NCBI RefSeq assembly: GCF_044324875.1
Contig: NZ_CP172185.1
Reading direction: 5' to 3' (one strand)
Length of the DNA stretch: 64,000 nucleotides
Origin: Escherichia coli
Lineage (GTDB): Bacteria > Pseudomonadota > Gammaproteobacteria > Enterobacterales > Enterobacteriaceae
Every line of letters begins with the position of its first letter. Within the stretch, counting starts at the first letter, position 1. A program made the position numbers. Of the stretch, positions 52,701 through 55,700 are shown piece by piece.

Positions 52701-55700
52701 GGGAAAGAGAATTGTTGAGGACGCAAAAATATTACATCAATTGCGCAATTCAAAGCAAGTAAGAAAAAGTCTTCATAATGGAGTACTCCGGTCACGGGAA
52801 TGGCTCAATACACAGGAGTTACTGAGAAGAAAAAATATATCTGTTACAGGTGACTCATTTAAATCTTACATAAAGGATATTGTCAGATTATATTGCTATA
52901 AGTTTCTCTACAGCAGAGAATATCTTAATGAAAACGCATACAAAAAACAATATCAGAGAGTTATTAACCCCAGAGAATTTAATGTTCCGATACTTCAACT
53001 TGAAGTTGCATGGATCAATAATAATTGCCGTTCAAGTGATTCAAGCTCTGATATTATCATCCTTCCCAGGATGATAAGAAGAATGGTTGTATTTAATGAT
53101 ACGAAGATAAATAAACAATTAGAGGAAATGTTGGGGGGGATAGCACGAAAAAAAGTCGCAGTAAGGAATAAAGGCGGTCTCTATACCAGAATAAAAAAAG
53201 AAAATGATTTTCGTTCTATGGATAGATTTATGGTGGAAATCGAAAATATCATAAGACCTGAAATATTTCCGACATCAATTTACCCGCCTTTTTCACTTTC
53301 ATTTATCGAGAGAGAATTGCCACTACTGAATCTGGCGCACTCACAGTACAAAAGAGCAATAAGTAAAAAAGTGGCGAATTCAATTTTTTATACTTTGCGA
53401 AAAACTCACGTGGCATTATGGCTGCATCTTGAAATGTTTGCTCTTGTGGCATTCATCAAACTGTATACAGGAAAAGGGTTTGAATTCATGAAAAACATGT
53501 GTGTATTTATAGATTATGATAAAGGGATAATAAAATCCACGCATGAAGAACTGCTGAGTGAAATTAAGTGTAACATTCAGTTGAATTTAAAGGTGAATCC
53601 TGATAATTTTCCTGAATTAATAGAAATATACAATTCATGCTTTAGTAAAAATATATTGTTGTATGATGTTCAGGATGATGGTTTTAAATGGTGTTTATGA
53701 TGTGAAAATATTAAATTTATATTACATTTTAATTATCGACAAAAAACACATAAAGAAATCTAAAGGGAATGAGCGTCAAATGAGCTGATATAGCGCCAGT
53801 TTGGTATGGTCATGTGATTTGATGATTAAAGCTTACGGATAATAACACTCCTCTGTGAGCCATATAAATGAGCATGCCATAATCGTCAGTTCAGAGATAA
53901 AACTGACTGAATGATCTTATGTTATAGTAAGCAGTGTTTACCGGATACGATGACTTATCTCTCTCACATCATATGGATTCACTTTCATGGGGTAAAGCGA
54001 TGGGACTACAGACGCTGATTATGATGGTTTGCTGTAAAGTTAGCACAAGTTTTTGCTGTACAGAATACGGAGTAAGAAAAATAATTCCAGAGTAAATCTG
54101 CTCTGCTTTTGAACAGAAAAGATTCATGCTTACCGTGAAAAACTGAAACCAACATTCAGTCTGCATGGATGTCTTAAGATGTTGAGAATGTCGGATATGG
54201 TATTATATACACCTTTTCCATTAGGTCCTTTTATGTTTTCATTAAGTCGTTTTGTATGTATTCCTTCAGTGATTCATTAGTGCATGTTTACGCATTTACA
54301 CACTTTTCCCATTAATCTCCTTTAAATGTGTTTCATTACGCATTGCTGTACACATTTTTGAACTGATACACATCCAAGTTAGTAAACCTGTCAGTTCTGA
54401 TTTTACGTTAACTAAATCAGTTTAATGCTGCTGTAAAACAATCTTTCCTGTTTAAGCAATCAATCTGCTATTCGATTTTACTGATGTGACGTTTAACCTT
54501 TCCTGAGCTTTGGTTGTTTGTGGTTTTTGGTTTGTGTTTCGACGTTAAGCTGAGAAAAGTATCTTTACGCTAAATCAACCCGAACTTTCCTGAGGTGATC
54601 TGACGTTCTTTTCGATGTGCTTACGACGATTCTGTTAAACGACTTTCTGGATGTTTTGATAACAATCAGATTGAGGCATTAACGATTCCTGACGTTTTGC
54701 TTTTTCATGTAAGGTCATTGTTTTCGTCATGATGTGGTTTTTCTTCTTGCATTGCGAAAGTGTGATGATTGGTTTTGGTTTTTTGATTCAGATGAGATTT
54801 ACGTTATCGATGGTTAATCGTTTTTATGGTGCGTAGTGAAACGTAACATTTTCGGGATGAGAAAATCGATTCTGATGGTGATGGGGATGATCGTGTTACG
54901 GCGTTATCTGTAAACAGGTTTTAAACGTGTCATTCGCATTCGTGATTGAGTTGTGTGATTAAGCTGTAGGTTTTGGCGTTGTTGTTGATTTGCATTGCCA
55001 GGAAGCGTTCTGGTTGCGTTTCTGGTGTTTTGTTCGAATGTTCTGTGGATCCTTTTCCCTTCAGGCTTTTCTCGTCGTCCATGTCGTTTTTAAATCCATT
55101 CATGCTGTTGTTGCGTGTTTTGCTGCTGTGTGCAGGATTATCTTTTCGTTCCGGGATGGTTTGTTCCGTTTCAATCACTCTTAATCAGAGAGTTGTAGCA
55201 TTGCTTAATGACATGATGCCGTAAAGTTTTACCGCGGTGATTAATGATGTGAAGTCAATCCAAATCAACGGAGATCTCTCATCATGAATCAACCAATACA
55301 CAATGCTTACTGGTTATCCCGTTTTGACAGCCTTCTCGACAGTGCCCTGTCGCAGCACCGTGCCGTCTCGTTAATCCGGGTGGATTTACGTTTCCCTGAG
55401 TATATGCCTGTCACCATCATGGATCCCGATCCGGATTCAGCGGTGATTTCTCGTTTTTTCGAATCCCTGAAAGCCAAAATCCAGGCTTACCAGCGGAAAA
55501 AACGACGTGCCAACAAGCGTGTGCGTGCAACCACTCTGCGTTATTTCTGGTGTCGGGAGTTTGGCAAGGAAAAAGGCAGGAAACATTATCACGTGATATT
55601 GCTGCTCAACAAAGATACCTGGTGCTCGCCAGGGGATTTCAGCGAACCATCTTCGCTGGCGACGATGATCCTGGAGGCATGGTGCAGCGCCCTGCATCTT

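What the first reader, a model, noticed from the sequence alone, without database searches (positions are those of the whole stretch)
53701..55283. 1.5 kb ORF-free tract with strong T/G strand skew
Between the orphan gene and the first YfjJ-like gene, the ORF track shows no ORF above about 85 aa on either strand across roughly 1.6 kb, which is unusual for E. coli. The plus strand is T- and G-rich with recurring gtttt/tgtgtt/ttttcg words. It could be a decayed gene, a long 5' leader or non-coding RNA, or a replication/recombination region of the island.
Basis: seen in the sequence. Interest (0 to 1): 0.5.

Follow-up and report, generated by a model that had tools for sequence, protein, structure and literature searches.

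The report
Long untranslated leader of island Rep-like gene
The gene-free, T/G-rich stretch is real and is most likely the promoter region plus an unusually long untranslated leader of a replication-initiator-like gene carried by a mobile genomic island found in about a third of E. coli genomes; it is neither a dead gene nor a known RNA, and its function has not been described.

Summary
Window 53701-55283 is the longest stretch of the window without an ORF of 100 aa or more. It also has the strongest T+G excess, which begins at about 54207.

It is not a decayed gene: substitutions show no codon periodicity, only 10 of 53 indel blocks are multiples of three, and no intact gene sits there in the related E. 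coli places listed or fetched. It matches no Rfam family and shows no RNA folding signal.

It is a composite:
- **53701-54062:** the 3' flank of a variable cargo gene.
- **54081-54206:** an old cis module, ATAAYTCCAGAGT followed 84-108 nt later by GTYGGAT-TGGTAWTAT, an extended -10 promoter-like site. The module is shared with Providencia, Brenneria and metagenomic islands, always pointing at a YagK/YfjJ ("inovirus Gp2") gene 102-1937 nt downstream.
- **54207-54345:** short direct repeats that differ between lineages.
- **54346-55096:** a fast-evolving, indel-rich, GTTTT-dense T/G-rich spacer.
- **55097-55283:** a nearly invariant segment whose hairpin buries the ribosome-binding site.

Best reading: an expanded 5' leader and control region of the Gp2-AlpA operon (confidence about 0.5). 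A replication origin or nick site for the HUH-fold Gp2 protein is not excluded. This is an uncharacterised member of a known kind, of moderate interest.

The parts
51492..52376 (-). GTPase family gene, first gene of the leftward conserved island module (GTPase, DUF932, antirestriction, RadC/JAB, CbtA toxin-antitoxin)
   Evidence: ORF; NCBIfam small-GTPase hits; annotated as GTPase family protein in the 99.7% twin L001. The same divergent GTPase/Gp2 arrangement occurs in Providencia.
52477..53700 (+). Orphan 407-aa cargo gene (GC about 33%) in a variable slot between the GTPase gene and the control module
   Evidence: No Pfam, NCBIfam, PHROG or PADLOC hit. Other islands carry different genes in this slot.
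53701..54062 (+). 3' flank of the cargo gene; not part of the conserved Gp2 upstream region
   Evidence: Only 53 of 1878 matching records cover at least 80% of the tract. In most others the homology starts at query position about 363, which is window 54063. In the close clade only 9 of the 130 polarised substitutions lie upstream of 54213; the other 121 are in the leader.
54081..54093 (+). Motif m1, ATAAYTCCAGAGT, conserved across genera
   Evidence: Occurs once in the window (chance 0.11). Occurs once, on the + strand, in 25 of the 34 loci then fetched. Its distance to Gp2 is -275 to -2063 nt. It is nearly invariant in the cross-genus alignment.
54088..54117 (.). Terminator-like hairpins at the start of the conserved core (CAGAG..CTCTG followed by a T run on +; two hits on -)
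   Evidence: Consensus scan and alignment. Conserved in E. coli only, not in other genera. Function is inferred.
54188..54206 (+). Motif m2, ATGTCGGATATGGTATTAT: an invariant GTYGGAT followed by an extended -10-like TGn-TAWTAT (hexamer 54201-54206). Putative Gp2 promoter, with a start site near 54213.
   Evidence: Conserved in E. coli, Providencia and metagenomic lineages at 84-108 nt from m1. In the metagenome scan, the five hits that carry the extended m2 are exactly the five with a Gp2 gene downstream. The shortest distance to the ATG is 102 nt. Transcription has not been shown.
54207..54345 (+). Cluster of short direct repeats (TYCATTA at 54217, 54238, 54273 and 54332, plus TCCCATTA near 54305), possibly operators or iterons
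   Evidence: 4 copies against 0.17 in dinucleotide shuffles. Other lineages have different repeats at the same place: ACTAAG, ATGTGTTT, AGAGWGTAT. The patterns were chosen after seeing the sequence.
54346..55096 (+). T/G-rich, GTTTT-dense, indel-rich variable spacer of the putative leader
   Evidence: Composition. 72-86% identity to homologues with 53 gap blocks. GTTTT density is kept while positions turn over. No internal long repeats. Replaced by unrelated DNA in L014-type loci.
55001..55033 (+). Terminator-like hairpin followed by GGTGTTTTGT inside the leader; a second one lies at 55101-55127
   Evidence: Consensus scan: 4 sites on both strands against 1.3+-1.4 in shuffles. The block is conserved in the alignment. 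Function is inferred.
55097..55283 (+). Nearly invariant proximal leader, kept even where the rest of the tract is replaced
   Evidence: The last 50 nt are 98% conserved. Many genomes match only query positions 1397-1583. L014 aligns only from about 55090.
55236..55294 (+). Predicted RNA hairpin that pairs the Shine-Dalgarno GGAG (55270-55273) and the Gp2 AUG. A 16-codon upstream ORF (55237-55287) ends in an ATGA overlap with the Gp2 start.
   Evidence: -19.8 kcal/mol, z -3.3. The same pairs appear in the consensus fold, but no covariation is possible because nothing varies. The upstream ORF is kept in 10 of 10 E. coli variants but not in other lineages.
55284..56015 (+). Gp2 / YagK-YfjJ family gene (243 aa), an HUH-fold Rep-like protein
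57013..57249 (+). AlpA-family helix-turn-helix gene (78 aa) downstream in the same orientation
   Evidence: PF05930 at 2.6e-10. An AlpA gene follows Gp2 directly in L016, L017, L019, L023 and L027.

Best explanation
The tract is non-coding control DNA of a CP4-57-like integrative island. Its first 360 nt are the tail of a cargo-gene cassette.

From 54063 onward it is the upstream region of the Gp2 (YagK/YfjJ, HUH Rep-like)-AlpA gene set. That region holds, in order:
- an old cis module: m1, then 108 nt downstream an extended -10 promoter-like site, m2, facing Gp2;
- a cluster of lineage-specific direct repeats at the predicted transcription start, read as operators;
- an untranslated leader of about 1.07 kb.

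In related lineages this leader is only about 100-650 nt long. In E. coli it has expanded into a low-constraint, U/G-rich, GUUUU-dense spacer. It ends in an invariant segment of about 190 nt whose hairpin occludes the ribosome-binding site.

The likely effect is to keep Gp2 and AlpA expression low. Candidate routes are premature termination in the leader, decay of an untranslated U-rich RNA, and an occluded RBS, until an island or host regulator acts at the promoter, the repeats or the hairpin.

Shown: the anatomy, the conservation pattern, the orientation, the non-coding nature and the Rep-like fold of Gp2. Inferred: that m2 fires, that transcription runs through the spacer, and every regulatory step.
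For: 1. Motifs m1 and m2 are conserved at fixed spacing (84-108 nt) and in fixed orientation upstream of Gp2 genes whose proteins are only about 38-50% identical (E. coli, Providencia, Brenneria, metagenomes).
2. The metagenome scan has its own control. About 14 chance hits were expected (my estimate). The 15 hits without the extended m2 have no Gp2 gene, and the 5 hits with it all have Gp2 102-655 nt downstream.
3. m2 contains TGn-TAWTAT with the key A2 and T6 positions. No comparable promoter match is found in the proximal 220 nt.
4. The T/G skew begins exactly at m2. Providencia's short 245-nt leader is also T/G-rich, with T+G 0.645.
5. The region is non-coding and is not a structured RNA.
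6. Proximal leader: invariant, with an RBS-sequestering hairpin at z -3.3. The Shine-Dalgarno sequence is also paired in several unrelated lineages.
7. Terminator-like sites exceed shuffles, 4 against 1.3. The first 240 nt of the sense RNA are C>G and G-poor, a composition I read as resembling a Rho-loading site.
8. The module occurs in 1861 of 5426 complete E. coli genomes, up to 7 copies per genome.
Against: There are no transcription data. m2 lacks a good -35 at 16-18 nt, and the standard consensus scan did not call it.

The 19-nt conservation of m2 and the 13-nt conservation of m1 exceed what a promoter needs, so they could be protein-binding or nicking sites.

In L014-type loci a 176-aa gene on the opposite strand lies between the module and Gp2, and the T/G-rich spacer is absent. 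The spacer is therefore dispensable, and Gp2 may have a proximal promoter that was not recognised.

The T/G skew is absent from the leaders of L019, L025 and L027, so it is not a general requirement of the system.

The hairpin cannot be tested by covariation.
Confidence: 0.5

Rival explanations
1. A cis-acting origin for the HUH protein. m1 and/or m2 would be the nick or recognition site, and the direct repeats would be iterons bound by Gp2. After AlpA- and integrase-driven excision, the island would replicate by rolling circle, or be mobilised as single-stranded DNA, from this region. The layout would resemble the Ff intergenic region in front of gene II, or the pMV158 double-strand origin in front of repB.
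For: Gp2 has the HUH signature and fold. Motifs of 13-19 nt that stay invariant across deep protein divergence are typical of nick or recognition sites. Lineage-specific direct repeats lie next to them. The region sits directly upstream of the rep-like gene in every lineage. The T-rich + strand resembles the viral strand of single-stranded DNA phages (my own knowledge).
Against: No hairpin around m1 is conserved across lineages. DnaA boxes are not enriched. The Gp2 family appears on plasmids only as a passenger on large replicons, never as the sole Rep of a small plasmid in PLSDB. The skew is confined to the leader, not the whole element. Recent substitutions are strand-symmetric, so there is no sign of one strand being exposed as single-stranded DNA. 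Gp2 proteins that are 92-96% identical sit behind different repeat types, which does not fit Rep-iteron co-variation.
Confidence: 0.2
2. Largely functionless filler. Only the proximal 190 nt (the real promoter and RBS) and perhaps the m1-m2 site matter. The T/G-rich middle would be AT-rich junk that accumulated by slippage and recombination between island copies, kept silent by H-NS and Rho and not transcribed through.
For: The spacer is more diverged than the four-fold sites of the adjacent gene: 66-86% identity against 85-98%. It has 53 gap blocks and a (GATGGT)8 microsatellite variant. It is a mosaic of a few haplotypes. It is replaced wholesale in L014-type loci. The substitution flux is compatible with slow decay of the skew, 42 changes toward T/G against 56 away from it. 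There is no folding signal.
Against: The skew and GTTTT density are kept in all E. coli variants despite 15-35% divergence and turnover of individual copies, and they are strictly strand-specific (11-24 on +, 1-3 on -). The mutation spectrum is strand-symmetric, so mutation alone would not create or keep the skew. Several internal blocks are 81-85% conserved.
Confidence: 0.2
3. Decayed remnant of a protein-coding gene.
For: Its length (1.2-1.6 kb) is gene-like. RefSeq annotates small hypothetical ORFs on the - strand in some copies.
Against: Variable sites are spread evenly over the three codon phases (0.42, 0.38, 0.40). Only 10 of 53 gap blocks are multiples of three. The annotated 82-aa ORF is intact in 2 of 10 homologues. 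The listed and fetched E. coli places show only 'none' or short hypothetical proteins under the match. No 3-nt periodicity appears in the Fourier spectrum.
Confidence: 0.03
4. A large structured non-coding RNA or an array of small RNAs.
For: A long conserved intergenic region next to mobile-element genes is where such RNAs have been found before (my own knowledge).
Against: No Rfam hit at E <= 1. Folding z-scores over 150-nt windows range from -2.4 to +2.0 on both strands, and are positive over 54500-54850. The covariation term is -0.13 kcal/mol, with 1 of 42 pairs showing a double change in the proximal part.
Confidence: 0.04

Closest known systems
Promoter-embedded loading site plus terminator-containing leader of processive antiterminators (lambda Q at PR'; P. 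aeruginosa AlpA at PalpB and PA0807; PMC7969949, PMC9371919)
   Same: An AlpA-family gene is linked to the locus. An invariant element (GTYGGAT) lies immediately upstream of the -10, where the AlpA- and Q-binding elements lie. A long 5' leader with terminator-like hairpins precedes the first gene.
   Different: The island AlpA is 78 aa, a helix-turn-helix domain only. The P. aeruginosa protein has its helix-turn-helix at residues about 128-142, after an N-terminal segment that forms the ring in the RNA exit channel (PMC9371919). The P. aeruginosa binding element GGGACG is unrelated in sequence. Here AlpA is encoded downstream of the leader, not upstream. Nothing about this has been tested experimentally.
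Origins placed in front of rolling-circle rep genes (Ff phage intergenic region before gene II; pMV158 double-strand origin with direct repeats and a nick hairpin before copG-repB)
   Same: A non-coding region lies directly upstream of an HUH-family gene related to G2P (PF23343), and RepB is among the structural neighbours. Short direct repeats are present. The strand with the sense of the rep gene is T-rich.
   Different: No conserved nick hairpin was found. The region is two to three times longer than those origins (my own knowledge). The element is a chromosomal island with no shown replication. The repeats do not co-vary with the Gp2 sequence.
Translational control of plasmid rep genes by an RBS-sequestering hairpin and a coupled leader peptide (IncFII tap/repA, IncI1/IncB repY/repZ; my own knowledge)
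   Same: A hairpin buries the Shine-Dalgarno sequence and the AUG of a Rep-like gene. A 16-codon upstream ORF runs through the hairpin and ends in an ATGA overlap with the start codon.
   Different: No antisense promoter was found. The upstream ORF is not conserved outside the E. coli clade. No covariation test is possible.
AT-rich, horizontally acquired regulatory regions silenced by H-NS and Rho (my own knowledge)
   Same: 37% GC inside a genome of about 51% GC. The antisense RNA of 54700-54990 has a C/G ratio of 2-4.4, and the first 240 nt of the sense RNA are C>G; I read these C>G, G-poor stretches as resembling Rho-loading sites.
   Different: Strong strand asymmetry and GTTTT density are not explained by silencing alone. 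Binding was not testable here.

Membership tests
Any Rfam RNA family | Covariance-model match | tested here: not met
   cmscan of 52000-57000 on both strands at E <= 1 gave 0 matches.
Structured non-coding RNA (generic) | Folding energy below shuffles, and covarying base pairs | tested here: not met
   z-scores of -2.4 to +2.0 in 150-nt windows on both strands. In the proximal 230 nt the covariation term is -0.13 kcal/mol, and 1 of 42 pairs shows a double change. The middle part was not tested for covariation on a deep alignment.
Protein-coding gene or pseudogene | Codon-phase bias of substitutions, indels in multiples of three, an ORF kept in relatives | tested here: not met
   Codon phases 0.42, 0.38, 0.40. 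Only 10 of 53 gap blocks are multiples of three. ORFs are kept in at most 3 of 10 homologues outside the invariant part.
Sigma-70 extended -10 promoter | TG at -15/-14 and a -10 hexamer with A at position 2 and T at position 6 | tested here: met
   TGG-TATTAT at 54198-54206. Other lineages have TGn-TACTAT or TGn-TAATAT; Providencia has TAG-TAATAT. This is a sequence match only.
Sigma-70 extended -10 promoter | A transcription start a few nt downstream | not testable with these tools
   No transcriptome data are available here.
Iteron-type or rolling-circle origin | Clustered direct repeats next to the initiator gene | tested here: inconclusive
   Repeats are enriched over shuffles in four lineages (patterns chosen after the fact). 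They lie 0.9-1.07 kb from Gp2 in E. coli and do not track the Gp2 sequence.
Iteron-type or rolling-circle origin | A nick site presented in a conserved hairpin; DnaA boxes for theta-type origins | tested here: not met
   No hairpin around m1 is shared by the lineages. DnaA-box-like sites are not enriched: 70 against 57.6+-8.1 in the window, with 3 in the tract. Actual nicking cannot be tested here.
HUH endonuclease superfamily (the Gp2 protein) | An HUH metal-binding motif and a catalytic Tyr in a YxxK context | tested here: met
   Invariant H101-Y102-H103, Y213 and K216 in 10 diverse homologues, including K-12 YfjJ and YagK.
HUH endonuclease superfamily (the Gp2 protein) | The HUH nuclease fold | tested here: met
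Q/AlpA-type antitermination unit | An antiterminator with a segment that inserts into the RNA exit channel | tested here: not met
   The island AlpA is 78 aa, with PF05930 covering residues 23-66. The P. aeruginosa AlpA helix-turn-helix lies at about residues 128-142, after a ring-forming N-terminal segment (PMC9371919).
Q/AlpA-type antitermination unit | A binding element between -35 and -10, a -10-like pause element in the early transcribed region, and terminators downstream | tested here: inconclusive
   An invariant GTYGGAT lies upstream of the -10, A/T-rich -10-like hexamers follow it (TATATA, ATATAT), and there are two terminator-like sites on +. None has been shown to function.
Skew driven by strand-asymmetric mutation (replication, transcription or single-strand exposure) | Complementary substitutions occurring at unequal per-site rates | tested here: not met
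   C>T 0.088 against G>A 0.092, T>C 0.039 against A>G 0.042, all Fisher p > 0.5, from 130 polarised changes.

The most novel reading that the evidence does not exclude
The region would be the master switch and origin of a large, unstudied family of enterobacterial islands. In this reading m1 and m2 are the loading or nick sites for the island's own AlpA and HUH Gp2 proteins. The GUUUU-dense, U/G-rich leader is a selected barrier (termination plus RNase E decay) that makes Gp2-AlpA expression all-or-none, so that excision and rolling-circle replication or transfer of the island fire only in rare cells.
Probability: 0.12. Interest if true: 0.65.

Novelty: new member of a known kind. Interest (0 to 1): 0.38.

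Why it matters
Islands of this type carry virulence, defence and toxin-antitoxin cargo in about a third of complete E. coli genomes, often in several copies. How they are kept silent, excised or copied is not known.

This work gives concrete handles for experiments on their control:
- the conserved promoter-like module, defined by two short motifs shared from E. coli to Providencia and Brenneria;
- the HUH-fold protein it faces;
- the long leader between them.

It also removes spurious "hypothetical protein" calls from the tract. It flags two variable slots, one on each side of the module, where cargo genes are exchanged.

Tried and rejected
- **Rfam:** a permissive search found nothing.
- **RNA folding:** sliding-window z-scores gave no signal on either strand.
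- **Long internal repeats:** self-BLAST gave only E >= 0.2. There was no helical or 3-nt periodicity.
- **DnaA boxes:** not enriched.
- **Mutation-driven skew:** the spectrum is strand-symmetric.
- **Uniformly Rho-proof leader:** rejected, because the first 240 nt of the sense RNA are C>G.
- **Upstream-ORF coupling as a family feature:** present only in the invariant E. coli segment.
- **K-12 as a model:** the yfjJ and yagK genes of CP4-57 and CP4-6 have short upstream gaps and lack m1.
- **Plasmid and phage collections:** Gp2 appears only as a passenger on large plasmids. The one "phage" record and the 11.7-kb "plasmid" are unverified chromosomal fragments.
- **Genome-contig scan with the E. 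coli protein:** returned only two close relatives.
- **Viral contigs motif scan:** returned one chance hit without Gp2.
- **Literature:** nothing on this region or on Gp2 function beyond gene lists.
- **PDB sequence search for Gp2:** no hit.
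Full report
**Observation**

Window 53701-55283 holds no ORF longer than 83 aa on either strand. It is the longest stretch of the 64-kb window without an ORF of 100 aa or more, at 1583 nt. The + strand is T 37.3%, A 25.5%, G 21.0%, C 16.2%. The 1-kb window starting at 54201 has the highest T+G fraction of the whole window, 0.628 against a mean of 0.513 and sd of 0.024.

GTTTT occurs 17 times on the + strand and 4 times on the - strand, against 6.4+-2.4 in shuffles. One refinement is needed: the skew starts sharply at about 54207, not at 53701.

**Context**

The tract lies between a 407-aa orphan gene (52477-53700) and a 243-aa gene (55284-56015). The orphan gene has no Pfam, NCBIfam, PHROG or PADLOC match.

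The 243-aa gene matches PF11726 (YagK/YfjJ, "inovirus Gp2") at 3e-36 and PF23343 (REP_ORF2-G2P) at 5e-9. It also matches PHROG replication-initiation families. Ten diverse homologues, including K-12 YfjJ and YagK, keep H-Y-H (residues 101-103), Y213, K216 and K220.

An AlpA-family helix-turn-helix gene follows at 57013-57249 (PF05930, 2.6e-10). To the left, on the other strand, run the GTPase, DUF932, antirestriction, RadC/JAB and CbtA toxin-antitoxin genes.

**Distribution**

Megablast of the tract finds 2909 places in 1877 of 5426 complete E. coli genomes, and in every locus I fetched the match ends at the start of a Gp2 gene. Only 53 genomes have a place covering at least 80% of the tract. 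Homology usually starts at window position about 54063, and in about a quarter of records only the last 187 nt match. The 5' module (54063-54400) is present in 1861 genomes, with up to 7 copies per genome.

The listed places carry only "none" or short "hypothetical protein" calls under the match. In the loci I fetched these are 57-82-aa ORFs on the - strand. K-12 has neither the tract nor motif m1.

**Not a gene and not a known or structured RNA**

Among 11 E. coli-type copies that are 66-86% identical:
- variable sites are equally frequent in the three codon phases (0.42, 0.38, 0.40);
- only 10 of 53 distinct gap blocks are multiples of three;
- no ORF of 12 codons or more is kept outside the invariant end, and the annotated 82-aa ORF is intact in 2 of 10 copies.

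Rfam gives nothing at E <= 1. Folding z-scores over 150-nt windows range from -2.4 to +2.0 on both strands. There are no long internal repeats and no periodicity.

**Anatomy**

Relatives of Gp2 at 38-50% identity were retrieved with their flanks: Providencia L017/L018, Brenneria L016, and metagenomic L019, L025 and L027. They show the same divergent layout, with the GTPase or DUF932 module pointing left and Gp2-AlpA pointing right. The intergenic gaps are 450-1360 nt. Three ordered features are shared with the E. coli tract.

- **Motif m1, ATAAYTCCAGAGT (window 54081-54093).** It occurs once, on the + strand, in 25 of the 34 loci then fetched. It occurs once in the window, against a chance expectation of 0.11.
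- **Motif m2, 84-108 nt downstream of m1.** The consensus is GTYGGAT(W)TGGTAATAT; the window has ATGTCGGATATGGTATTAT at 54188-54206. It reads as an extended -10 element, TGn-TAWTAT.
- **A cluster of short direct repeats immediately after m2.** The sequence differs by lineage: TYCATTA here, ACTAAG in most E. coli copies, ATGTGTTT in Providencia and AGAGWGTAT in L019. Each is enriched over shuffles, but the patterns were chosen after seeing the sequence.

A metagenome scan for m1-N60-90-TRGTAATAT gave 20 hits, where I estimate about 14 from chance. The 15 hits without the extended m2 have no Gp2 gene. The 5 hits with it all have a Gp2 gene 102-655 nt downstream.

The simplest reading is that m2 is the Gp2 promoter and that E. 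coli has stretched the leader to 740-1080 nt (1937 nt in L015).

**The leader itself**

The skew begins at m2 (T+G 0.585-0.618 in E. coli leaders, against 0.53-0.60 in the 300 nt upstream of m1). Providencia's 245-nt leader is also T/G-rich (0.645), but the leaders of L019, L025 and L027 are not.

The middle part (54346-55096) is a mosaic of a few old haplotypes with many indels, including a (GATGGT)8 expansion in L009. It is more diverged than the four-fold sites of the adjacent Gp2 gene, which are 85-98% identical. In a close clade, 121 of 130 polarised substitutions fall in 54213-55283.

Those substitutions are strand-symmetric: C>T 0.088 against G>A 0.092 per site, and so on. Ongoing asymmetric mutation therefore does not explain the skew.

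GTTTT density is kept in every E. coli-type leader (11-24 on +, 1-3 on -; z 2.8-8.4). Only 7 of the 16 window copies are positionally conserved. Runs of exactly four T are in excess. I could not explain this. G-U|U-U-U fits the RNase E RN|WUU preference (PMC5222698), but that is only a lead.

The sense RNA is C>G and G-poor over its first 240 nt, which I read as resembling a Rho-loading site, and it is strongly G>C at 54700-54990. The antisense RNA there has a C/G ratio of 2-4.4. Two terminator-like hairpins with U tracts lie on the + strand at 55001-55033 and 55101-55127.

In L014-type loci the whole middle part is replaced by unrelated DNA that carries a 176-aa gene on the opposite strand, while m1, m2 and the proximal part are kept. 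The spacer is therefore dispensable.

**Proximal part**

The last 50 nt before the ATG are 98% conserved, and the whole of 55097-55283 is kept even where the rest is not. It folds into a hairpin (55236-55294; -19.8 kcal/mol, z -3.3) that pairs the Shine-Dalgarno sequence and the AUG. The Shine-Dalgarno sequence is also paired in several unrelated lineages. No covariation test is possible because nothing varies.

A 16-codon upstream ORF (55237-55287) ends in an ATGA overlap with the Gp2 start. It is not found outside the E. coli clade.

**Interpretation**

I favour an expanded 5' leader and control region of the Gp2-AlpA operon (confidence 0.5). The main rivals are:
- a cis-acting origin or nick region for the HUH protein (0.2);
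- largely functionless filler with only the ends functional (0.2);
- a decayed gene, or a structured RNA (both under 0.05).

The published P. aeruginosa AlpA mechanism is a suggestive parallel. That protein loads at an element between -35 and -10 and lets RNA polymerase read through terminators in the leader (PMC7969949, PMC9371919). However, the island AlpA is a 78-aa helix-turn-helix protein without the ring-forming N-terminal segment, so membership in that system is not supported.

No paper retrieved describes this region or the function of Gp2 in islands.

**Verdict**

This is a real, widespread, unannotated non-coding element. It is most likely regulatory and is a new member of a known kind. 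Interest is moderate.

Noticed in passing
window 52477-53700, and the same slot in L002, L003, L010, L011, L012: The slot between the GTPase gene and motif m1 holds different, mostly unannotated genes in different islands. Here it is a 407-aa, 33%-GC orphan with no hit in Pfam, NCBIfam, PHROGs or PADLOC. Elsewhere it holds pairs of 260-340-aa hypothetical proteins. This looks like a cargo-exchange hotspot. Defence genes (TIR, MADS, GmrSD, type I R-M) lie on the other side, after AlpA.
   Followed up: partly
L009 around 4150-4200, aligned to window 54868-54893: A (GATGGT)8 microsatellite sits where the window has GATGGTGATGGGGATGATCG. This shows slippage-type length variation inside the leader.
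   Followed up: no
L014 1205-3177: In this common locus type, m1 and m2 lie 1.9 kb upstream of Gp2. The T/G-rich spacer is replaced by unrelated DNA with a 176-aa gene on the opposite strand. Only the last 190 nt or so before Gp2 are shared with the window.
   Followed up: partly
window 54930-55178 (-): RefSeq annotates this 82-aa ORF as a hypothetical protein (WP_000573215.1 in the twin locus). It is intact in only 2 of 10 homologous leaders, and the region shows no coding signature. It is probably a spurious call.
   Followed up: yes
window 55237-55287: A 16-codon upstream ORF (GTG...TGA) runs through the 5' arm of the RBS hairpin. Its stop overlaps the Gp2 start as ATGA. This resembles the leader-peptide coupling of plasmid rep genes, but it is not conserved in other lineages.
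   Followed up: partly
window 58093-58395 (-): An ORF fragment is similar to FinO/ProQ RNA chaperones (NCBIfam FinO 1.5e-10). It is annotated as a frameshifted ProQ/FINO family protein in the twin locus and appears as a ProQ/FINO family gene (cut at the locus edge) in L011.
   Followed up: no
window 45731-47016: This is the second longest stretch without an ORF of 100 aa or more (1286 nt). It lies between an integrase-like ORF (44711-45730, -) and the DUF4942 gene. The twin locus has a frameshifted tyrosine recombinase nearby.
   Followed up: no
window 55284-56015, residues about 153-195: The E. coli 243-aa Gp2 clade carries a low-complexity insertion of about 40 aa (S/P/D/K-rich, pLDDT below 60) that is absent from all 189-207-aa relatives, including K-12 YfjJ and YagK.
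   Followed up: no
window 56372-56941 and 57479-58075: Two roughly 190-aa ORFs downstream of Gp2 have no family match.
   Followed up: partly
window 51492-52376 (-): The island GTPase gives a weak PADLOC match to LeoBC (3.9e-7) over its C-terminal 100 residues.
   Followed up: no
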